IMG/VR virus record: IMGVR_UViG_2660238580_000001
Location: 1 to 37,504 of that record
Source of the DNA: a virus
Lineage: Duplodnaviria > Heunggongvirae > Uroviricota > Caudoviricetes
Reading direction: 5' to 3' (one strand)
DNA length: 37,504 bases
Under the pieces are notes generated by a model, which was not told the DNA's origin, did not search any database, and worked only from the letters and a program-made list of their open reading frames with translations. The number at the start of each line of letters is the position of its first letter. Within the stretch, counting starts at the first letter, position 1. The position numbers were made by a program, and so were the translations under genes. Below are positions 1,459 through 37,504 of the stretch, piece by piece.

Positions 1459-2622
1459 TTACACATCATTTGTACCTTCCTTATTTTTTGACTGGGACAA
1501 ATTTGGGACCGATGGGTTCAGGATCGAGTCTATTTGCCGTGCGTGTTCGGTAAGGTGATTAGGTGCAAGGTGAGCATATCGACGAACCATTTCGATAGAC
1601 TCCCAGCCTCCCATTTCCTGTAACACTGACAACGGGACTCCGGCTTGAACCAGCCAACTTGCCCAGGTGTGTCTCAAGTCGTGAAATCTGAAATCATCAA
1701 TACCAGCCCGTCTCAGCGCCGCTTTCCAGGCTGTGTTTGCGTCATACCGCATCTTCCTTACTGTTGGCGCTTTCGTTCCGTCTGGTTTGGTACAGCTTTC
1801 CTTGTACACAAATACCCAACGGTGATGATTCCCGATTTGTTTTTTCAATACGCGACATGCAGTATCATTCAGCGCAACGCCAATTGCGCGGTTTGATTTA
1901 CTCTCTTCCGGGTTTATCCATGCCACCCGGCGCTGCATATCTATTTGTTGCCATTCAAGGTTGATGATGTTCGAGCGTCTTAAGCCTGTTGCCAGTGCAA
2001 ATTCAACAACAGACTTTAATGGCTCCGGACATTCATCAATCAGCCTTTGTGCTTCATGGGGCTCCAGCCAGCGGATCCGTTTATTCTTTGGTTGAGGCAC
2101 TTTAATAATTGGTGCCTTATCCAGCATTTTCCATTCACGCTCTGCGGCTCTTAGTAGGGCCTTTATAAATGAAAGATGCGTAGCCTTCGTTGCAACGGAC
2201 GCTGGTTTTGGCGTGTATTCTGGAACAGGTTTCCCTTTTTTTCTGCATGCTTCTGCCCTGAGTTTCCAGTTTTCCTCATGACGCCGGTTCGTCATTTTCT
2301 GCATTGCTGAATAAATTTTTGATTCAGTAATGTCTCTTAGTTGCATTCCTGCGAAATGTTGAAGCCAGAATCCGATCCGGCTTTTGTCATCGTCCAGTGA
2401 TTTTTTATGTGCTTTCTCTTCAAGCCACCTGACACACGCTTCCTCGAACGTTATATCAGGTATTTCACCAAGTTTGCTGACCCGCCATGCTTCAGCCTTT
2501 AGCTTGTCATGGAGTTCTGTCGCCTGCCTTTTGTCCTTTGTTCCAAGAGACTGTTTAAATCTTTTACCGTTCGGCAATGTGAAACTGGCGTACCATATTT
2601 CACCTCTGCGGAAGAGTGACAT
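1459..2622 (-). CDS. int: Tyrosine site-specific integrase, P22-like
   Basis: 387-aa ORF; C-terminal catalytic region with HDLRHTWAS ... RYAHL motifs typical of tyrosine recombinases; resembles my recollection of phage P22 Int, which uses thrW as attB. Confidence 0.94.
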
Positions 2623-16218: not shown

Positions 16219-16704
16219 ATGGATTGGAATATGTGGTCTGCTATTGGGGCTTGTGGTTCGGCTATCGCGTCTTTATGGGCGTTGTGTTATGCACGCAAGG
16301 CGTTAAACACATGGAATAGACAAGAGCAATTTAAAGTAAAGTTAGAGTTTAAACGAGCTTTACTTGAGCTGGAGGATGCCTTTGAGGCAATGCCCGATAA
16401 TTGGAATTCCACACAATACAGAATAGCTAGAACAAGAGTTGAACAGCAGTATAATGCTGTTGTTCACCGAGTTGATGATGCAGCACAGCTATATTTCAAG
16501 AAAGAAAACCTTAAATCAGCATACCAGAATGCAGTGAGAGCATGGGTTTTATGTGAAGGGGGGATTAGAGATAAAAGTATACATGCTGAATGGAAACAAC
16601 TCAGGACTGATTATAGTCAATATATTATGACTGGTGGAAATAAAAAGTGCTACTTATCAAAAATAGAAAAAATATATTCTAGAATTGTCGTGTTCATAGA
16701 TTGA
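16219..16704 (+). CDS. Hypothetical membrane-anchored protein (moron between lysis and packaging genes)
   Basis: ATG at 16219 after GGAGG; N-terminal hydrophobic helix (WSAIGACGSAIASLWALCYA) then charged helical region; AT-rich. Confidence 0.6.
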   Translation: MDWNMWSAIGACGSAIASLWALCYARKALNTWNRQEQFKVKLEFKRALLELEDAFEAMPDNWNSTQYRIARTRVEQQYNAVVHRVDDAAQLYFKKENLKSAYQNAVRAWVLCEGGIRDKSIHAEWKQLRTDYSQYIMTGGNKKCYLSKIEKIYSRIVVFID

Positions 16705-16750
16705 TTTTTATATGAGAGAGACAAGTACTCTCTCATTATGGATATTTTAC

Positions 16751-17101
16751 ATGCCACCACGAACCCCAAAAGCCTGCCGCGTTCGCGGCTGCCGCAATAC
16801 CACTACTGATCCGTCAGGCTATTGCGAAAACCACAAAAGCGAGGGCTGGAAGCAATACAAGCCAAGACAATCCCGTCATCAGCGCGGTTATGGTTCTAAG
16901 TGGGATGTTATTCGCGTGCGTGTGCTGCAACGTGACAAAGGCCTGTGTCAGTTATGTCTGCGTGCTGGTGTGGTACGTGAGGCGAAAACCGTTGACCACA
17001 TCATTCCTAAAGCGCATGGCGGCACAGATGCCGACAGCAATCTGCAGAGTCTGTGCTGGCCGTGTCATAAGGCGAAGACGGCCCGTGAACGGCTTAAGTG
17101 A
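16751..17101 (+). CDS. HNH endonuclease (terminase-associated)
   Basis: ATG at 16751; HNH/zinc-finger motifs (CRVRGC ... C..H, DHIIPKAHGG ... CWPCHKAK); directly upstream of the small terminase, as in HK97-like cos phages. Confidence 0.85.
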   Translation: MPPRTPKACRVRGCRNTTTDPSGYCENHKSEGWKQYKPRQSRHQRGYGSKWDVIRVRVLQRDKGLCQLCLRAGVVREAKTVDHIIPKAHGGTDADSNLQSLCWPCHKAKTARERLK

Positions 17102-27039: not shown

Positions 27040-27188
27040 CGGCTGAATACCTCACTGATCGCTTCTTTGACTGCGCCAGCTACTGGCGCATTAATCCCTT
27101 CGAATTGCTGAATATGCCGATCAGTGAAATTCCCTTGCTGGTCAGTCAGGCAAACAGGATAGAGCAGGAGAAACGCACACATGGCTGA
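26770..27188 (+). CDS. Tail assembly chaperone, -1 frameshift extension product (G-T like)
   Basis: Slippery heptamer T_TTT_TTC at 27021-27027 in the zero frame; the -1 frame stays open to 27188, overlapping the tape measure start. Confidence 0.55.
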
Positions 27189-29013
27189 ATTTGAGCTTAA
27201 GGCGTTGATCACCGGTGTCGACAGGCTTTCTCCCGCGCTGTCGAAAATGCAAAAGAAAATCCGGGGATTTAAACGCCAGGCGGAAGAAGCGTCACAGGGT
27301 GGGTTGGCGCTTGGTGGCGGACTGGCAGCGGGTCTGACGCTTTCCCTGAAATCTTATGCTGATCAGGAAAACGCCGCCACCGGGCTGAAAGTCGCCATGA
27401 TGGATGCGAACGGCGAGGTTGGAAAGAGCTTTCAGGACATCAATAAACTGGCTATTGGCCTGGGTAACCAGCTACCCGGTACAACGGCTGATTTCCAGAA
27501 CATGATGCAGATGCTGGTGCGTCAGGGGATCCCGGCAGAAAACATTCTTGGTGGTGTGGGTAAAGCGACAGCTTATCTTGCGGTACAACTGAAAAAAACA
27601 CCGGAAGCGGCTGCTGAGTTTGCCGCAAAGATGCAGGATGCTACCGGAACGGCCTCAGAAGACATGATGGGGCTGTTCGACACAATTCAGAAGGCGTTTT
27701 ATCTGGGCGTGGACGATACCAACATGCTGTCATTCTTCACTAAAACCAGCTCTGTTCTGAAGATGGTGAATAAGGACGGTCTTCAGGCTGCACAGAGTCT
27801 TGCCCCCATCAGTGTCATGATGGATCAGATGGGGATGAACGGGGAGTCGGCAGGTAATGCCCTGCGAAAAGTTATCCAGTCCGGATTAAGCGTTAAGAAA
27901 ATCAGGGACGTCAATAAAATCATGGCCCGCCAGAAACTCGGGGTACAGCTCGATTTTACTGATGGCAAAGGGAGTTTTGGCGGTCTTGATAACATGTTCA
28001 GGCAACTGGCAAAGCTGCGAAAACTGACCGACGTTAAGCGAACCGGTGTACTTAAGGCAATATTTGGTGATGATGCCGAAACCCTTCAGGTGGTCAATGC
28101 ACTAATCGATAAAGGAAAGGATGGCTACGATCAGATCCAGCAGAAGATGAATAAACAGGCCAGCCTGAATAAACGTGTTCAGGCTCAGCTTGGTACGCTG
28201 TCCAACCTGTGGGAGGCAATGACGGGGACCGCAACTAACGGCCTTGCGGCTATTGGCGGCGCATTTTCTGGTGACGCTAAGAACATCACGCAGTGGCTGG
28301 GGGAGTTGGGGGAGAAATTCACGAAGTTTGCGGATGAAAATCCCCGGGTTATTCGCGGCGTCGTCGGGCTTGCTGCCGGTCTTGCGATTCTGAAACTGGG
28401 ATTGATGGGCGTGGGCAGTGCCATCAGCATTGTCAGCAGGATCATGTCGATGACGCCGATTGGCATGATTGCGACGGCGATAGCCCTGGCTGCGGGATTA
28501 ATTATCACTAACTGGGATGTTGTCGGACCTTATTTCAAGAAGCTCTGGGAAACCATTGGTCCTTATTTTGAGGCTGGCTGGGAACTCCTTAAGAAAGTTT
28601 TTGCCTGGTCGCCGCTGGGGATGGTGATCAATAACTGGGGACCGGTTGTTAAGTGGTTTCAGGATATGTGGGATAAGCTGAAGCCGATTATTGAATGGTT
28701 TACCGACAGTTCCGGTGACACGGTCGATACCATTAACTCGGCGCAGTGGGGCGCGGGTGCTTATGATGCTTATGGGACGGGAATACCGGCACGGGGATAC
28801 ACGCCTTATCCGGCGGTGGATCCGGCTCAGGCAAACAACGCCTCCGATGCCACAGGCTCGAATCCCTTCATGATTAATAAAGCTACCGCGCCAAAAGTTG
28901 ATGGTGAGATCAAGGTATCATTTATAAATATGCCACCAGATATGCGGGTTACGGAAACACGCTCCAGTGGCATTGATATAAATCACGATGTTGGCTATAC
29001 CCGATTTTGGTAG
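27181..29013 (+). CDS. Tail tape measure protein
   Basis: 610 aa; Ala/Gly-rich helical protein with hydrophobic central segments, downstream of the chaperone pair. Confidence 0.9.
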   Translation: MAEFELKALITGVDRLSPALSKMQKKIRGFKRQAEEASQGGLALGGGLAAGLTLSLKSYADQENAATGLKVAMMDANGEVGKSFQDINKLAIGLGNQLPGTTADFQNMMQMLVRQGIPAENILGGVGKATAYLAVQLKKTPEAAAEFAAKMQDATGTASEDMMGLFDTIQKAFYLGVDDTNMLSFFTKTSSVLKMVNKDGLQAAQSLAPISVMMDQMGMNGESAGNALRKVIQSGLSVKKIRDVNKIMARQKLGVQLDFTDGKGSFGGLDNMFRQLAKLRKLTDVKRTGVLKAIFGDDAETLQVVNALIDKGKDGYDQIQQKMNKQASLNKRVQAQLGTLSNLWEAMTGTATNGLAAIGGAFSGDAKNITQWLGELGEKFTKFADENPRVIRGVVGLAAGLAILKLGLMGVGSAISIVSRIMSMTPIGMIATAIALAAGLIITNWDVVGPYFKKLWETIGPYFEAGWELLKKVFAWSPLGMVINNWGPVVKWFQDMWDKLKPIIEWFTDSSGDTVDTINSAQWGAGAYDAYGTGIPARGYTPYPAVDPAQANNASDATGSNPFMINKATAPKVDGEIKVSFINMPPDMRVTETRSSGIDINHDVGYTRFW

Positions 29014-29039
29014 CCAGGATTCCCCTCACATGTATTGCT

Positions 29040-29104
29040 GGTTGTAAGTCATAAATAGAGTGATAGAATTAATGCACATTTAGAAAAATGTTAATAGGCG
29101 AAAA
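29040..29104 (+). promoter_or_regulatory. Candidate sigma70 promoter for the tail-region moron
   Basis: TTGTAA-N16-TAGAAT in the AT-rich gap between the tape measure stop and the moron start codon. Confidence 0.4.
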
Positions 29105-29635
29105 ATGAAAGGCTATATCACAGCAAGTGTAATTCTTGGAGCAGCGGCTATTTTTTCATCTCTCATAATCTCTGGCAACATCTCCTTTAAAGATGAACAT
29201 ATTATTCAGTTATCTGGAGGAGCCATAAAACTTGGTGATGTTTATAAAGAAAATAAATTGATAAGTGCAAAGATTATTTTTCCAGATAATCAGGGTGAAC
29301 AGATTCTTGTTGTCGACGGCAATCCTGAAAACTTTAAGGAGGATTTTCAGGAGAAATTAAATAAAGTAATAAAAACTTTAAATGCGTCAAAGAAAAAAGA
29401 TGAAGAGAAAGTTAGCCTGGATAATTTAAGTGTTATTGAAGAGTCTAAACTAGAGCTCGTTTCTGCGGTGCGTTACTCTGCTCAGTATGTTCCTATGTTT
29501 ACTCTGACGCTGGACAAAAAAGAAATTACCATGCCTAAAAATACGGTAATATTTCCATTTGCCAGCGATGAAACAGCTAAGTATTTAAATGAACAACAGC
29601 AAAAGTATAAAGATTCGTTGTTTCTGACTCGCTAA
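29105..29635 (+). CDS. Hypothetical exported or membrane-anchored protein (moron inside the tail gene cluster)
   Basis: 176 aa; N-terminal signal-peptide-like helix (ITASVILGAAAIFSSLIISG) with no lipobox Cys; very AT-rich; flanked by its own candidate promoter and a strong terminator. Confidence 0.65.
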   Translation: MKGYITASVILGAAAIFSSLIISGNISFKDEHIIQLSGGAIKLGDVYKENKLISAKIIFPDNQGEQILVVDGNPENFKEDFQEKLNKVIKTLNASKKKDEEKVSLDNLSVIEESKLELVSAVRYSAQYVPMFTLTLDKKEITMPKNTVIFPFASDETAKYLNEQQQKYKDSLFLTR

Positions 29636-29653
29636 TTAATAAAATTCATTACA

Positions 29654-29686
29654 AGGCCACCTTCTAATAGGTGGCTTTTTATTTTT
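29654..29686 (+). terminator. Intrinsic terminator after the moron
   Basis: AGGCCACC-ttctaata-GGTGGCTT hairpin followed by TTTTTATTTTT. Confidence 0.7.
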
Positions 29687-29696
29687 CGGAGTGTAT

Positions 29697-31025
29697 ATGA
29701 CGTGGAAAGACAGGCTTCAGGATGCGTCATTTCGAGGTGTGCCGTTTAAGGTTGAAGAAGAAAGTGCGGGAACCGGCCGTCGTGTGGAAACACACGAATA
29801 TCCGAACCGCGACAAACCCTATACCGAAGATCTGGGAAAAGTCACTTTCCGCCCGTCCATCACGGCTTATGTGGTGGGAGATGACTGCTTTGACCAGCGC
29901 GATCGCCTGATTGACGCGCTGAATAAACCCGGTCCCGGCACGCTTGTCCACCCGACATACGGTGAGCTGAAAGTCTGTGTTGACGGGGAAGTTCGGGTCA
30001 GCACATCGAAGAGTGAAGGGCGTATTGTCCGCTTTGACCTGAAGTTTGTCGAAGCGGGAGATCTCTCTTACCCCACATCAGGCGTGGCGACGGCGCAGAC
30101 GCTGATGTCATCCTGTTCTGCACTGGATGACTGCATCAGTGACAGCTTCAGCGGTTTCAGTATCGATGGCGTGGCGGATTTTGTGCAGAACGACGTTATC
30201 GGTAATGCCAGCACAATGCTTGGGTATGTTTCTGATGCGATGAAAGTGGTGGATTCTGCCGTATCGGATGCCGCCAGGCTGTTGCAGGGGGATATCTCGG
30301 TACTTCTGCCGCCACCATCGTCAGGCAAAAATTTCGTTGAGCAGGTGCAGAAAATGTGGCGTACCGGGAAACGCCTTTATGGTAACGCCAGCGACCTGGT
30401 CACCATGATCAAAACGCTTTCCGGTGTCAGCCTCGGCAGCGATCTGCAACCGCGCGGCGTCTGGAAAACGGACAGTAAAACCACCGCCACGGCGACGCAG
30501 CAGCGTAATGTGGTTGCCAGCACTCTTCGTACGACCGCAATCAGCGAAGCGGCGTATGCCGTCACCCGATTGCCTGCGCCAACAACTTCCGCGGTGATGC
30601 AGAATGCCACAGTGGGGCAGTCAACAACACCCGCGCAGAGCACCGGCTGGCCTTCTGTCACGCATCCGGCACTGAACAATGCACCGGCGGTGAAAAACAC
30701 GGTTGACCTGCCAACGTGGGAAGAACTGACCGACATTCGCGACACACTGAATACGGCAATTGATAAGGAGTTGTCCCGTACAACCAGTGATGCGCTGTTT
30801 CTGGCGCTGCGCCGGGTGAAAGCAGATCTGAATGCGGATATCAACACGCGCCTTGAACAGTCTGCACGGATCATTCAGCGCACGCCGGATGAGGTTTTAC
30901 CCGCGCTGGTGCTGGCGGCGACCTGGTTTGATAACGCGGCGCGTGACGCGGACATTATCCGGCGTAATGCCATTACGCATCCCGGCTTTGTGCCGGTGAT
31001 CCCTCTGAAGGTGCCAGTGCAATGA
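29697..31025 (+). CDS. DNA circularization protein (Mu N-like)
   Basis: ATG at 29697 after GGAG (track ORF starts at a GTG at 29691); position after tape measure as in Mu-like tails. Confidence 0.8.
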   Translation: MTWKDRLQDASFRGVPFKVEEESAGTGRRVETHEYPNRDKPYTEDLGKVTFRPSITAYVVGDDCFDQRDRLIDALNKPGPGTLVHPTYGELKVCVDGEVRVSTSKSEGRIVRFDLKFVEAGDLSYPTSGVATAQTLMSSCSALDDCISDSFSGFSIDGVADFVQNDVIGNASTMLGYVSDAMKVVDSAVSDAARLLQGDISVLLPPPSSGKNFVEQVQKMWRTGKRLYGNASDLVTMIKTLSGVSLGSDLQPRGVWKTDSKTTATATQQRNVVASTLRTTAISEAAYAVTRLPAPTTSAVMQNATVGQSTTPAQSTGWPSVTHPALNNAPAVKNTVDLPTWEELTDIRDTLNTAIDKELSRTTSDALFLALRRVKADLNADINTRLEQSARIIQRTPDEVLPALVLAATWFDNAARDADIIRRNAITHPGFVPVIPLKVPVQ

Positions 31026-34697: not shown

Positions 34698-35354
34698 ATG
34701 CATCGTATAGACACGAAAACCGCGCAGAAGGATAAGTTCGGCGCGGGTAAGAACGGTTTTACCCGTGGTAACCCCCAGACCGGCACGCCTGCCACCGATC
34801 TGGATGATGACTACTTTGACATGTTGCAGGAAGAGCTTTGTGGCGTGGTGGAGGCATCCGGTGCCAGCCTGGAGAAGGGGCGGCATGACCAGCTGCTTAC
34901 CGCGCTTCGTGCGCTGCTGTTAAGCCGCAAGAATCCGTTTGGCGATATCAAATCGGATGGCACGGTGAAAACGGCTCTCGAAAACCTTGGTTTGGGAGAA
35001 GGTTCGGCATTACCCGTTGGCGTGCCTGTTCCGTGGCCTTCCGCTATTGGTCGCTTCGGGTTTTTTGTTTGCGGTGGTGGCTCTTTTTCTTTTGCATCAT
35101 GTTTTGTTCTTGAGTGGGGCTCTCTGGGCGCTCCATTGCTTGCTTTGGGTGTTGTGTTTCTTTTTGGGTTTGCTTTTGGGCGTGGATTTGTTCGTGTTTT
35201 TGTTTTATTAGCGTATCCAGCGGATGGCGTGGTTTTTGGTTATCTTGGCTTTGCTGGTTTTGTTGGGTCCGTTGTTAATTTTCTGTCTGGAGTCGGTCCT
35301 GTTGTCTTTGGCGCTTCATTTTTAGCGTTAGGCTGTTCATTTGGTTTTGTTTAG
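34698..35354 (+). CDS. Tail fibre protein: conserved N-terminal region intact; C-terminal part inside the invertible segment is aberrant (likely non-functional in this orientation)
   Basis: Typical tail-fibre N-terminus (MHRIDTKTAQKDKFGAGKNGF ... PVGVPVPWPSA); after the crossover site at about 35000 the reading frame continues as Gly/Phe/Val/Leu-rich low-complexity sequence. Confidence 0.55.
   Translation: MHRIDTKTAQKDKFGAGKNGFTRGNPQTGTPATDLDDDYFDMLQEELCGVVEASGASLEKGRHDQLLTALRALLLSRKNPFGDIKSDGTVKTALENLGLGEGSALPVGVPVPWPSAIGRFGFFVCGGGSFSFASCFVLEWGSLGAPLLALGVVFLFGFAFGRGFVRVFVLLAYPADGVVFGYLGFAGFVGSVVNFLSGVGPVVFGASFLALGCSFGFV
34975..35000. repeat. gix/hix-like recombination site (left), within the tail fibre gene
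   Basis: CTCTCGAAAACC-TT-GGTTTGGGAGAA, a 26-bp imperfect palindrome resembling Hin/Gin crossover sites; its reverse complement matches the first 14 nt of the right site. Confidence 0.6.
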
Positions 35355-36872
35355 TGGTCTATGAGTTACATAGTTTTTACTTATACCACTGGTGGAAGAA
35401 ATGGTGCTGAATCAGTGAGTTCACCTGATGCCTCCTCTTTGCTTGATGATGCTGTTGAAGTTGATGTGGCATTTTCTTTTGTGTTTTGGGGTTTATCGTG
35501 GATTGGGCCGTTTTGTATCGCTGGTTTATCTGGTTTTCGTGCGTGGTTCTTACTGTTTATAACTATGATGGTGAAACACGGGAATATATTTTCACATCAA
35601 CTGAATATCTTGCTGTGGGTGTCGGCATTCCGGCATGCTCCTGTTTAGATGCTTGTTACTGCTGTTATTGTTGTTATGCAATCTGCCGTTCTGCAGATTT
35701 TAACTTTTTGGTTTGTTTGCCTGGCCGCCGTGGTGCTGGTGTATATTTCCGTTGCGCCGGATATTGAATGGCCTTCGCCTCTGGGGGTTCTTGCCCTGTG
35801 ACTTCCGGCGCTGTGGTGGTGTTTGTTGCCTTCGCTGCGTGGGTTTGTTCGAGCTGGGTGTTCGGTCGTGTGGTTTCTGCTTGCGTCGGCTTCGGCGCGG
35901 CCTGCGCTTTGCGTTGGTTCCTGCTTGTTGCTGCCATTGCTTTCTTCATTCTTGTTTGACTGTGTTTTTCTGCCGGGTGTACTGTGGCGCAGTGCTGTGC
36001 CTCCGTATTTGTCGCTGTTTTGTCTTCCTTTGATTTGTTGACTGGCGTTAACGGGGCGATAGTGGTTGTATTTTCAGGGTATTCACCCGGGGCTGTGATT
36101 TCTTTTGATTCTCCTGTTTCAGTGCTATATACCGTTTCACCACGGTGGTCTGGCACATATACCCATGATTTTATTTCTGCAGTTCGTCAGCTTTCATACG
36201 CCGCTTTGTCTGTTTCCGGGGCCATTGTTTACTGTTCATATAATCGTTGGCCTGATTAATCAATTGCTGCTTCTCCAATTCGGCTGTATTCCTTTGTTTC
36301 TCCTTTGTTGTTGTTGGCATTTCTGTTTCTTGCGTGGGTGGCTTTTCTTTCGTTATTTGGTTTTTTGTTTTCGGTTGTGCTGCGGTCACGTTATTCTCCA
36401 CTTGCTGGTTCCGTGGTCTGGTTTCTTTTGTTCATGAGTCAGCTTGAGTGTAATCCTCTTTCATCTCCAGCGGATAGAAAGAGTTTGTAGTCGCGGAATC
36501 TCTTTCATTGTTTTTTCAGTCCTTCTCGCTAACTTTTTTTGCTGATGCTAAAATTGTTTCGTCGGGTCTAGGCTTTTTTGTTCTGTATGTGATTTTAGTC
36601 GGTTCGGGCCTTTTTGTAGGTATTCCATGATTATGAGAAATTACTGCATGTTGTTTGTTGTTTTGTGAGGTCCGACCGCTCTGCCCTCTGTTTGGGTCTT
36701 CCCTGGGGCGATTGGTTTCTCCATGTTGTTCAGTGCCTTTATTTGTCGGATAAGCCTTTGCCAGTTCCGGGTATTCTTGTGCTTTTTGATCTGCAGTGTT
36801 TGATTTCGGCCGGGTTGTTGTCGGCGTGTCAGGTATCTGATTCGCCCCTGTCCCTACATTCCTTTTAGCCGC
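35001..36872. other. Invertible (G-segment-like) DNA segment with extreme strand-asymmetric base composition
   Basis: Bounded by inverted gix-like sites next to a serine invertase. Hand counts in 60-nt samples (A/C/G/T): 2/11/20/27, 5/6/17/32, 5/6/19/30, 1/18/20/21, 2/9/16/33. Overlapping stop-free ORFs occur on both strands. Confidence 0.6.
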
Positions 36873-36952: not shown

Positions 36953-37504
36953 ATGCTCATCGGCTATGTACGCGTGTCAACAAATGACCAGAACACTGCA
37001 TTGCAACGAAACGCGCTGGAGTGCGCAGGATGTGAACTGATATTCGAGGATAAGATCAGCGGCAGAACGTCTGACAGGCCGGGCTTGAAGAAAGTACTCA
37101 GGACTCTGTCTGAAGGCGATACGCTGGTGGTCTGGAAACTGGATCGACTCGGTCGCAGCATGCGGCATCTTGTCGTTTTGGTGGAGGAGCTTCGGGAAAA
37201 GGGTATTAACTTTCGCAGCCTGACCGACAGCATAGATACGTCTTCACCAATGGGACGCTTTTTCTTCCATGTCATGGGCGCACTTGCAGAAATGGAAAGG
37301 GAGCTGATAGTCGAACGTACCAGGGCGGGATTGGCTGCGGCTCGTGAAGAAGGGCGAATAGGTGGGCGTCGATCAAAGCTAACTGATGAACAGTGGGCGC
37401 AGGCAGGCAGGTTGATTGCAGCAGGTGAATCACGACAGCGTGTGGCATTAATTTACGATGTTGGGATATCGACGCTATATAAAAAATTTCCGGCAACCAG
37501 GTAA
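36953..37504 (+). CDS. Serine DNA invertase (Pin/Gin/Hin/Cin family)
   Basis: 183 aa; close match to E. coli Pin as I recall it (MLIGYVRVSTNDQNT ... VVWKLDRLGRSMRHLV ... GRIGGRR ... YDVGISTLYK), including the catalytic serine motif and C-terminal HTH. Confidence 0.93.
   Translation: MLIGYVRVSTNDQNTALQRNALECAGCELIFEDKISGRTSDRPGLKKVLRTLSEGDTLVVWKLDRLGRSMRHLVVLVEELREKGINFRSLTDSIDTSSPMGRFFFHVMGALAEMERELIVERTRAGLAAAREEGRIGGRRSKLTDEQWAQAGRLIAAGESRQRVALIYDVGISTLYKKFPATR

What the first reader, a model, noticed from the sequence alone, without database searches (positions are those of the whole stretch)
29040..29686. Self-contained moron inside the tail gene cluster encoding an exported or membrane-anchored protein
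Between the tape measure and DNA circularization genes sits a very AT-rich 176-aa ORF with its own candidate promoter (TTGTAA-N16-TAGAAT) and a strong intrinsic terminator (29654-29686). The product has a signal-peptide-like N-terminus without a lipobox cysteine. Autonomous expression from the prophage state and an envelope location are typical of superinfection-exclusion or host-interaction factors; tail-region insertions such as cor in phi80-like phages set a precedent.
Basis: partly seen in the sequence, partly recalled or inferred. Interest (0 to 1): 0.55.

Follow-up and report, generated by a model that had tools for sequence, protein, structure and literature searches.

The report
Exported-protein moron in prophage tail cluster
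A small, AT-rich add-on gene sits between two tail genes of an E. coli prophage and encodes an uncharacterised protein exported to the cell envelope; it is probably a lysogen-protecting factor, an ordinary kind of phage cargo whose function is untested.

Summary
A 176-aa ORF (29105-29635, GC 34% against 52-56% in its neighbours) lies between the tape-measure and DNA-circularisation genes of an SfV-like prophage. It has a promoter-like site upstream and a strong terminator downstream.

It is accessory, not structural. SfV and SfII have a near-empty junction there. In E. coli genomes the junction is a cargo hot spot. About 172-175 of 5426 complete genomes carry this cassette. Others carry unrelated AT-rich genes: a signal-peptide protein, a lipoprotein, a PH-domain protein and an OB-fold protein whose PHROG family is labelled 'Sie-like'.

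Homologues 41-59% identical occupy the same slot in Leclercia, Edwardsiella and metagenomic prophages, and are under purifying selection (dN/dS about 0.08-0.13).

The wider family (77 clusters, about 175 aa) always has an N-terminal hydrophobic segment. A remote homologue in a virulent Pseudomonas phage has a lipoprotein signal instead, so the domain is periplasmic.

No Pfam, NCBIfam, PADLOC or PDB relative was found. Superinfection exclusion, by analogy with HK97 gp15, is the best guess but is only inferred. The promoter is no better than chance statistically, and a terminator is present at this junction whatever the cargo.

Verdict: a real, ordinary moron carrying an uncharacterised protein family.

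The parts
27181..29013 (+). Tail tape-measure gene, left border of the cargo slot
   Evidence: PF10145, E 1.3e-26. Annotated as tape measure in RefSeq.
29014..29104 (+). Upstream intergenic region of the cassette (91 nt), AT-rich
   Evidence: Sequence read. It has 7 variable sites among 73 E. coli copies, none in 29042-29099.
29042..29069 (+). Candidate sigma-70 promoter: TTGTAA, 16-nt spacer, TAGAAT, with TG at 29061-29062 (extended -10)
   Evidence: 9 of 12 positions match, and the number of sites in the region is not above the shuffle expectation. A TTGnnA box aligns in 4 of the 5 other orthologous cassettes compared (L087 has TTAACA; Edwardsiella does not align there). Function is untested.
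29096..29098 (+). AGG Shine-Dalgarno-like triplet, 6 nt before the ATG
   Evidence: Read directly from the sequence.
29105..29635 (+). 176-aa ORF, an uncharacterised exported protein (WP_000679479.1, PHROG 5485)
   Evidence: Purifying selection: 14 synonymous against 8 nonsynonymous variable sites in E. coli copies, and dN/dS 0.08-0.13 between orthologues.
29105..29176 (+). Codons 1-24: N-terminal export signal. Either a cleavable signal peptide (possible site I-S-G|N) or an uncleaved signal anchor
   Evidence: Hydrophobicity and charge analysis, and no Cys. The segment is conserved across the family. It corresponds to the lipoprotein signal LLTG|C of the ventosus homologue.
29186..29632 (+). 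Codons 28-176: predicted periplasmic alpha/beta domain (six strands and two helices)
   Evidence: AlphaFold2 model: pLDDT 73-95 from residue 31 to the C-terminus in 10-residue blocks, except one block at 67. No significant PDB match.
29653..29688 (+). Intrinsic terminator: 10-bp stem, 6-nt loop, U-rich tail
   Evidence: An equivalent terminator is present at this junction in all cargo variants and in empty sites.
29697..31025 (+). DNA circularisation (Mu N-like) tail gene, right border of the slot
   Evidence: PF07157, E 4e-34. RefSeq start as.

Best explanation
This is a moron: a horizontally acquired accessory gene cassette. It sits in a recombination-permissive cargo slot between the tape-measure gene and the DNA-circularisation gene. 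The host is an SfV-like prophage with an HK97-type head, a Mu-type contractile tail and a Q-antiterminated late operon.

The cassette encodes a 176-aa protein of an uncharacterised family. The first 24 or so residues direct export through Sec. The remaining 150 or so residues form an alpha/beta domain in the periplasm. The domain is either released by signal peptidase I or tethered to the inner membrane as an N-in/C-out anchor.

The gene is probably transcribed at a low level in the lysogen from its own weak sigma-70 promoter, with the terminator shielding the downstream tail genes. It is also transcribed within the late operon after induction.

The most likely function is envelope-level protection of the lysogen, that is, superinfection exclusion. 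The protein would interfere with the periplasmic or inner-membrane stage of genome delivery by incoming phages, as HK97 gp15 does.

Shown here: the gene is real, accessory, mobile and under purifying selection, and it carries an export signal. Inferred: the periplasmic location. Analogy only: expression in the lysogen and exclusion activity.

My confidence is about 0.85 for 'moron encoding an exported envelope protein' and about 0.35-0.4 for superinfection exclusion specifically. The single figure of 0.5 is a compromise between the two.
For: Accessory status:
- SfII and SfV have only about 40-60 nt plus a terminator at this junction.
- There is no tblastn match in 50,697 phage records.
- In 5426 complete E. 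coli genomes, about 1090 carry the junction, and 172-175 of those carry this cassette at mostly 98-99.8% identity (97.2% at lowest).
- Other genomes carry unrelated AT-rich cargo: 84 a 164-aa signal-peptide protein, 54 a 225-aa lipoprotein, 54-72 a tRNA_anti-like OB-fold protein and 24-28 a bPH_1 protein.
- The OB-fold cargo matches PHROG 8545, labelled 'superinfection exclusion Sie-like', at E 1e-43.

Foreign composition: GC 0.34 against 0.52-0.56 here. The same pattern holds for homologues in other phages.

Real gene under constraint:
- 14 synonymous and 8 nonsynonymous variable sites among 73 copies.
- dN/dS of 0.08-0.13 between orthologues.
- A stand-alone copy survives in a decayed prophage next to icd in Lelliottia. 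It has low dN (0.10-0.13) but saturated dS against prophage copies, so the nominal dN/dS of 0.03-0.04 is unreliable.

Modular exchange: between two Leclercia prophages, dS is 1.07 for the cassette but 0.29 and 0.20 for the flanking genes.

Export:
- The hydrophobic N-terminus is conserved in 55 of 55 aligned family members.
- The Pseudomonas phage ventosus lipoprotein has the same fold (Foldseek E 1e-6, TM-scores 0.54 and 0.64).
- The family profile also matches it (E 2.5e-5) and it has a lipobox where this protein has its hydrophobic segment.

Expression signals: the promoter-like site, the terminator and a Q antiterminator at 11970-12320.

Precedent: HK97 gp15 is a moron next to the tape-measure gene. 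It is expressed from the prophage, is an inner-membrane protein and blocks genome injection (PMC3594210).
Against: - No functional data of any kind are available.
- The protein matches no known exclusion or defence family in Pfam, NCBIfam or PADLOC.
- The promoter match is at chance level. The scan finds no comparable box upstream of orthologues or of the other cargoes.
- In one distant phage (L101) the homologue follows the tape-measure gene after only 23 nt with a strong ribosome-binding site. That suggests late co-transcription rather than autonomous expression.
- A virulent-phage homologue (ventosus) shows the family is not restricted to lysogens.
- The gene sits beside or near tape-measure genes in three different tail modules. 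That could mean a tail-linked or injection-linked role for the phage itself.
- Gene-wide dN/dS shows no arms-race signature.
Confidence: 0.5

Rival explanations
1. The protein is a lysogenic-conversion factor unrelated to phage exclusion. A periplasmic or membrane protein would change host envelope physiology, for example stress tolerance, colicin or serum resistance, adhesion or colonisation, as lambda Bor and Lom do.
For: The evidence for an exported, accessory gene under purifying selection is the same as for the best explanation. The gene is retained as a stand-alone copy after prophage decay in Lelliottia, which suggests a benefit to the host itself. It is widespread in commensal, animal and clinical E. 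coli.
Against: Nothing links the family to a host pathway. Members ride almost only on phages, prophages and small integrative islands. A virulent phage carries a homologue, which fits phage-phage or phage-envelope biology better. One alternative cargo in the same slot is labelled Sie-like.
Confidence: 0.22
2. The protein acts in the phage's own lytic cycle and is expressed mainly late, with the tail genes. For example, it could protect progeny from abortive adsorption or injection into lysing cells and debris, as T5 Llp does. It could also modulate peptidoglycan or inner-membrane events at lysis or at the next infection.
For: The gene is co-oriented inside the Q-dependent late operon. The L101 homologue is tightly coupled to the tape-measure gene, with a 23-nt gap and an AAGGAG ribosome-binding site. 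There is a homologue in a virulent 97-kb phage. The promoter evidence is weak.
Against: The gene is dispensable. SfV and SfII lack it, as does about 57% of an evenly spaced sample of E. coli prophages with this tail. Its foreign composition and cassette exchange are typical of morons. The stand-alone copy in a decayed prophage is still under constraint.
Confidence: 0.2
3. The protein is a structural or assembly component of the contractile tail, for example one that acts with the tape measure.
For: The position next to the tape-measure gene is conserved in E. coli, Leclercia and Edwardsiella prophages, and in a different myovirus module.
Against: An export signal is incompatible with cytoplasmic tail assembly. 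The gene is absent from plaque-forming relatives that have the same tail genes at 92-94% DNA identity in the adjoining circularisation gene. Unrelated genes replace it in the same slot. Distant members lie in non-tail contexts.
Confidence: 0.03
4. The ORF is spurious or decaying, arising by chance in AT-rich junk DNA.
For: No database function is known, and the sequence is AT-rich.
Against: Full-length homologues were found in 77 clusters (at 50% identity) with conserved motifs. dN/dS is 0.08-0.13. The ORF is intact in 73 of 79 sampled copies, with an excess of synonymous changes. The fold prediction is confident.
Confidence: 0.01

Closest known systems
HK97 gp15 moron (Cumby et al. 2012; reviewed in PMC3594210)
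   Same: It is a small cassette of foreign composition inserted in the tail operon, directly beside the tape-measure gene. It encodes an envelope (inner-membrane) protein. It is expressed from the prophage and blocks genome injection depending on the incoming phage's tail region.
   Different: There is no sequence relationship: the YebO family and every other Pfam family give no hit. gp15 is described as a small inner-membrane protein, whereas this protein has a 150-aa periplasmic domain. gp15 lies upstream of the tape-measure gene of a siphovirus. This gene lies downstream of the tape-measure gene of a contractile Mu-type tail. No function has been tested here.
Lipoprotein exclusion factors: T5 Llp, phi80/N15 Cor, TP-J34 Ltp
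   Same: They are phage-encoded, exported, membrane-tethered proteins that protect the cell at the receptor or injection step. Cor blocks the FhuA receptor (PMC3594210) and Ltp is a lipoprotein involved in superinfection exclusion (PMC3952083, listed). From general knowledge, Ltp is reported to act on the tape measure of the incoming phage. A remote homologue of this family is itself a phage lipoprotein.
   Different: The window protein has no cysteine and so no lipobox. No sequence or fold similarity to these proteins was detected.
Lipoprotein of Pseudomonas phage ventosus (A0A2H4P829; MG018930 51995-52429, minus strand)
   Same: It has the same predicted fold (Foldseek E 1.1e-6, probability 1.00). 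The mature N-terminus carries the family motif (TIIHT..VVNVGEV). The family profile matches it at E 2.5e-5.
   Different: It is 144 aa with a lipobox (LLTGC) instead of the hydrophobic anchor or signal. It lies in the early or middle region of a virulent 97-kb phage, not in a tail slot of a prophage. Its function is also unknown.
Tab of Pseudomonas phage JBD26 (PMC10884400)
   Same: It is a moron inside the late structural operon. [quoted passage not shown]
   Different: Tab is an 83-residue protein that blocks tail assembly inside the infected cell, and it lies between the terminase genes. The window protein is exported and is unrelated in sequence.
P22 SieA and T4 Imm/Sp
   Same: SieA is a membrane-bound protein that blocks genome entry of superinfecting phages (PMC3594210; PMC10883804, listed). 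From general knowledge, T4 Imm and Sp act similarly at the membrane.
   Different: No homology was detected: no Pfam, NCBIfam or PADLOC hit. Their genomic locations also differ.

Membership tests
Moron (Juhala et al. 2000 definition, as summarised in PMC3594210) | Present in one phage but absent from the same position in close relatives | tested here: met
   SfII and SfV junctions are empty. Most E. coli prophages with this tail are empty or carry other cargo.
Moron (Juhala et al. 2000 definition, as summarised in PMC3594210) | Base composition differs from the surrounding genes | tested here: met
   GC 0.343 against 0.515 and 0.562; GC3 0.30 against 0.57 and 0.61.
Moron (Juhala et al. 2000 definition, as summarised in PMC3594210) | Own promoter | tested here: inconclusive
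   The site matches 9 of 12 consensus positions and has an extended -10 TG, but the number of sites is not above shuffles. A -35-like box is partly conserved, and the 73 E. coli copies show no variation in it. The scan does not find it in orthologues.
Moron (Juhala et al. 2000 definition, as summarised in PMC3594210) | Own terminator | tested here: met
   The hairpin folds at -15.6 kcal/mol, z = -3.7, and is followed by a U-tract. Caveat: a terminator is also present at empty junctions.
Moron (Juhala et al. 2000 definition, as summarised in PMC3594210) | Expressed from the repressed prophage | not testable with these tools
   This needs RNA-seq, 5'-RACE or a reporter in a lysogen.
PHROG 5485 (unknown function) | Full-length profile match | tested here: met
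   E 3.8e-108, residues 1-176 of 176. Distant members P0042 and P0072 also match.
HK97 gp15 / YebO family | Sequence similarity to the family | tested here: not met
   No Pfam-A family matches at E <= 0.1. The YebO model is covered only if it is in this Pfam copy, which rests on my own knowledge. No member of the 55-sequence family alignment matches it either.
Bacterial lipoprotein (Cor and Llp type) | Lipobox with an invariant Cys at the end of the signal peptide | tested here: not met
   The protein contains no cysteine.
Sec signal peptide cleaved by signal peptidase I | A positive n-region, a hydrophobic h-region and small residues at positions -3 and -1 | tested here: inconclusive
   K2 is followed by a hydrophobic stretch, and I-S-G|N at residues 22-25 fits the rule. 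The position corresponds to TG|C in the lipoprotein homologue. However, the 26-residue uncharged run (family median 22) fits a signal anchor equally well. SignalP and DeepTMHMM were not available.
Known anti-phage defence systems (PADLOC-DB 2.0) | Match to any defence protein model | tested here: not met
   No family at E <= 1. The alternative cargoes also give no match.
Tail structural or assembly protein of SfV/Mu-type tails | Conserved in all phages that share the tail module, and cytoplasmic | tested here: not met
   The gene is absent from SfV and SfII and has no match in the phage collection. It carries an export signal.

The most novel reading that the evidence does not exclude
The protein founds a previously unrecognised family of exported exclusion proteins, membrane-tethered or periplasmic. 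These would block genome delivery by contractile-tailed (Mu/SfV-type) phages at the tape-measure or inner-membrane step. The junction between the tape-measure and circularisation genes of SfV-like prophages would then be a dedicated hot spot for envelope-acting anti-phage cargo: five or more interchangeable cassettes, each closed by a terminator.
Probability: 0.3. Interest if true: 0.55.

Novelty: new member of a known kind. Interest (0 to 1): 0.35.

Why it matters
If the protein excludes phages, it would add a new and fairly widespread family to the short list of envelope-level exclusion factors. The family has 77 clusters at 50% identity and spans prophages, integrative islands and a virulent phage. 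It would also be one of the few such factors linked to contractile-tailed temperate phages of Enterobacteria.

The more practical result is the slot itself. About 1090 of 5426 complete E. coli genomes carry this junction, and at least five unrelated small cargo genes alternate there. At least three of these carry clear export signals. That makes a compact, easily mined hot spot for testing prophage-encoded envelope functions.

As it stands, the finding is an ordinary moron of unknown function.

Tried and rejected
- Annotation searches of the ORF found nothing informative. Pfam, NCBIfam and PADLOC gave no hit. Pfam on all 55 family members gave only scattered single weak hits.
- tblastn of the ORF and of the Pseudomonas member P0072 against 50,697 phage records found nothing.
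- A profile search against PDB sequences gave only a dextranase at E 0.49, which is noise.
- The AFDB50 Foldseek library was not available.
- Rfam gave only a sub-threshold Phe_leader hit over the terminator hairpin (26 bits against a gathering score of 55). I rejected it as a generic terminator match.
- The search for related loci with two of the sub-family alignments failed because no stretch was conserved enough. The genome-contig scan returned only the Edwardsiella locus.
- A search for the RefSeq protein accession in the paper library found nothing.
- I considered that the short Q ORF (116 aa) had been truncated by the neighbouring AT-rich island. I rejected this because the Pfam Q domain is covered end to end, and the related phage simply carries a different Q-to-holin segment.
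- I considered diversifying selection. Gene-wide dN/dS is low.

Full report
**Observation.** The window holds a 531-nt ORF at 29105-29635 on the + strand (176 aa, ATG start). Upstream is a 610-aa tape-measure gene (27181-29013, PF10145). Downstream is a DNA_circ_N gene (29697-31025, PF07157), followed by Mu gpP-, gp45-, gp46- and J-like baseplate genes. The ORF has GC 0.343 and GC3 0.30. The tape-measure gene has 0.515 and 0.57, and the circularisation gene has 0.562 and 0.61. TTGTAA-N16-TAGAAT lies at 29042-29069 with a TG one base before the -10 hexamer. A 9-of-12 match is no more frequent here than in shuffled sequence: 3 found against 2.7 +/- 1.7 expected. The hairpin at 29653-29678 plus U-tract folds at -15.6 kcal/mol (z = -3.7; 0 of 200 shuffles as stable). 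The N-terminus, MKGYITASVILGAAAIFSSLIISGNISFK, has one positive charge and then a 26-residue uncharged stretch (best 19-residue Kyte-Doolittle mean 2.11). The protein has no cysteine.

**The phage.** The element is an SfV/SfI/SfII-like temperate phage.
- It has an integrase (1459-2622, minus strand), an S24 repressor, a Q antiterminator (11970-12320) and a holin.
- It has an HK97-type capsid, a contractile sheath, a Mu-type baseplate and a Pin-type invertase.
- A 37.7-kb circular record of the same phage exists in strain CX04.

**The gene is accessory, in a cargo hot spot.** In SfII and SfV the tape-measure stop is followed by about 25 nt, a terminator (GTCCCACTCCGGTGGGATTTTTT) and then the circularisation gene. 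No phage record in the 50,697-genome collection encodes the protein.

Counts among 5426 complete E. coli genomes:

| Junction state | Genomes |
|---|---|
| Junction present | about 1090 |
| This cassette, mostly 98-99.8% identity (97.2% at lowest) | 172-175 |
| 164-aa protein with a classical signal peptide (GC 0.31) | 84 |
| 225-aa lipoprotein (LLGGC) | 54 |
| bPH_1 PH-domain protein | 24-28 |
| tRNA_anti-like OB-fold gene on the opposite strand | 54-72 |

- In an evenly spaced sample of the ranking, 28 of 49 junctions were empty.
- The OB-fold cargo matches PHROG 8545, labelled 'superinfection exclusion Sie-like' (E 1.3e-43). That label is a database annotation, not a tested function.
- All variants, including the empty one, end in a stem-loop plus T-run immediately before the circularisation gene. 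The stems differ in sequence. The terminator is therefore a property of the slot rather than of this gene alone.

**Orthologues.**
- Proteins 53-59% identical occupy exactly the same slot in related prophages of Leclercia and in metagenomic contigs. A 41%-identical protein does so in Edwardsiella anguillarum.
- Tube, sheath and gpP are 75-86% identical and the circularisation protein 68-71%, so the cargo has diverged more than these. The tape measure varies more widely, at 35-77%.
- The cargo is AT-rich in each host phage.
- Unsaturated pairs give dN/dS of 0.08-0.13, similar to the circularisation gene (0.16).
- Within E. coli there are 14 synonymous and 8 nonsynonymous variable sites.
- Between two Leclercia prophages the cassette has dS 1.07 while the flanking genes have 0.29 and 0.20. 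This indicates exchange of the cassette independent of its neighbours.
- In Lelliottia amnigena the gene survives alone next to icd, preceded by the last few dozen bases of a tape-measure gene. This is a decayed prophage that kept the gene. The copy has low dN (0.10-0.13) but saturated dS, so its dN/dS is unreliable.

**Wider family.**
- A profile search of 1.84 billion representatives found 77 clusters with E <= 1e-3. Nearly all are 170-195 aa.
- All 55 full-length members aligned have the N-terminal hydrophobic segment. It is followed by a conserved N-[IV]-[IL]-x4-G-x-[VI]-x-L-G-x-[VI]-Y-x-E motif and a Y-x-S-E-x-x-P-x-F-x-L motif.
- Contexts vary. One member lies directly after the tape-measure gene of a different myovirus (L101: 23-nt gap, GC 0.33 against 0.53). 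One lies inside a baseplate cluster beside another signal-peptide ORF (L100). Others lie elsewhere in viral contigs (L102, L103). In Pseudomonas-type genomes they lie in small islands with integrase and resolvase genes.

**Protein.**
- The second AlphaFold2 model (mean pLDDT 76.8; 10-residue blocks from residue 31 to 170 score 73-95, apart from one at 67) shows four strands, a helix, two strands and a C-terminal helix.
- Foldseek against viral models gives one clear hit: 'Lipoprotein [Pseudomonas phage ventosus]' (E 1.1e-6, TM-scores 0.54 and 0.64).
- I located that gene at MG018930 51995-52429 on the minus strand. It is 144 aa with the signal MKRLLFLGITALLLTG|C. Its mature part starts with the family motif. 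The family HMM matches it at E 2.5e-5 among that phage's ORFs.
- Two different export devices on the same domain argue that the domain works in the periplasm.
- The lipobox cleavage point aligns with I-S-G|N (residues 22-25) of the window protein. A signal peptidase I site there is plausible, and an uncleaved signal anchor (N-in, C-out) is equally plausible. I could not run a dedicated predictor.

**Mechanism.**
- Established: a mobile, constrained, exported accessory protein in a slot that collects small, mostly exported cargo.
- Inferred: low-level transcription in the lysogen from the promoter-like site, with the terminator insulating the tail genes, and read-through by Q-modified polymerase after induction.
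- By analogy: superinfection exclusion at the genome-delivery stage. The closest precedent is HK97 gp15. It is the original moron, lies beside the tape-measure gene, is expressed from the prophage, inserts in the inner membrane and blocks injection depending on the incoming tail (PMC3594210).
- Tape-measure-directed prophage defences such as Tab (PMC10884400), and membrane defences that act at injection (PMC13190303), show that this step is a common target.
- Against the analogy: no homology to any known exclusion or defence protein, a chance-level promoter, tight late-operon coupling in L101, and a homologue in a virulent phage.
- I therefore give about 0.85 to 'moron encoding an exported envelope protein' and about 0.35-0.4 to exclusion. 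The main rivals are a host-directed conversion factor (0.22) and a late lytic-cycle accessory role (0.2). A structural tail role (0.03) and a spurious ORF (0.01) are effectively excluded.

**Novelty and score.** The kind of element is well known. The protein family (PHROG 5485) is uncharacterised, and I did not find this junction described as a cargo hot spot in the papers I searched. I rate it a new member of a known kind, with interest 0.35.

**Seen in passing.**
- Window 35045-36828 is not a natural sequence. It is collinear and ungapped with the invertible tail-fibre segment of strain APEC20/16. Every one of its 1788 bases equals either that reference or its inverted copy, and 92.6% equal the alphabetically larger of the two. 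It is therefore a chimeric consensus of both orientations. ORFs called there are artefacts.
- An AT-rich island at 12345-14547 on the minus strand lies between Q and the holin. It carries an NA37 nucleoid-associated-protein homologue and a 395-aa protein with no Pfam or PADLOC match.

Noticed in passing
window 35045-36828: The invertible tail-fibre segment next to the Pin-type invertase (36953-37504) is extremely poor in A (AT skew down to -0.69). It is collinear and ungapped with the same segment of E. coli APEC20/16. All 1788 bases equal either that reference or its reverse-complemented (inverted) copy, and 92.6% equal the alphabetically larger of the two. It is therefore a chimeric consensus of both orientations, an assembly artefact, and the ORFs called there are not real. 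It also implies that both orientations were present in the sequenced culture.
   Followed up: yes
window 12345-14547 (minus strand): A strongly AT-rich island (GC 0.31-0.40) lies between the Q antiterminator (11970-12320) and the holin (14838-15164). It encodes a 344-aa NA37 (YejK-like) nucleoid-associated protein homologue and a 395-aa protein with no Pfam or PADLOC match. This is a second cargo region, in the position where lambdoid phages carry toxins or defence genes. The related circular phage record carries a different segment here.
   Followed up: partly
window 16216-16800: Another AT-rich stretch (GC 0.375-0.417) lies between the lysis genes and the terminase genes. It holds a 162-aa ORF (16216-16704) with no Pfam or PADLOC match and may be a further moron.
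   Followed up: partly
SfII locus L002 2473-2511; SfV locus L003 about 2460-2495: Phages with an empty slot still carry an intrinsic terminator between the tape-measure and circularisation genes, in the middle of the late operon. Its stem closely resembles the terminator behind the PH-domain cargo (L097 1294-1309). This suggests either deletion of a former cargo or a resident terminator upstream of which cargo inserts.
   Followed up: partly
L004 10013-11808, L110 8012-9819 (Leclercia-type prophages): Two extra ORFs (503-520 aa and 94 aa, no Pfam hit) lie between the circularisation gene and the gpP-like baseplate gene. They are absent from the window, so this is a second variable slot in the same tail module.
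   Followed up: no
L090-L093 (6401-6943 and 7001-7534 in L090); L100 5576-5917: Distant family members are paired with another small signal-peptide protein immediately upstream: 180 aa in the Pseudomonas-type islands, next to a resolvase and an Mrr-like nuclease, and 113 aa in the L100 baseplate cluster. This may be a two-gene exported module.
   Followed up: no
NZ_CP081716.1 (L104), 37,667 bp, circular: A record annotated as a plasmid of E. coli CX04 is in fact this phage in circular form. It has a partial dusA and an integrase at the junction, and many frameshifts that may be sequencing errors (my inference). The moron ORF is truncated there (315 nt).
   Followed up: partly
L008 7895-8560 (Lelliottia amnigena, next to icd): A stand-alone copy of the cargo gene, with its terminator and the last bases of a tape-measure gene, lies about 370 nt downstream of icd. 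The rest of the prophage is gone.
   Followed up: partly
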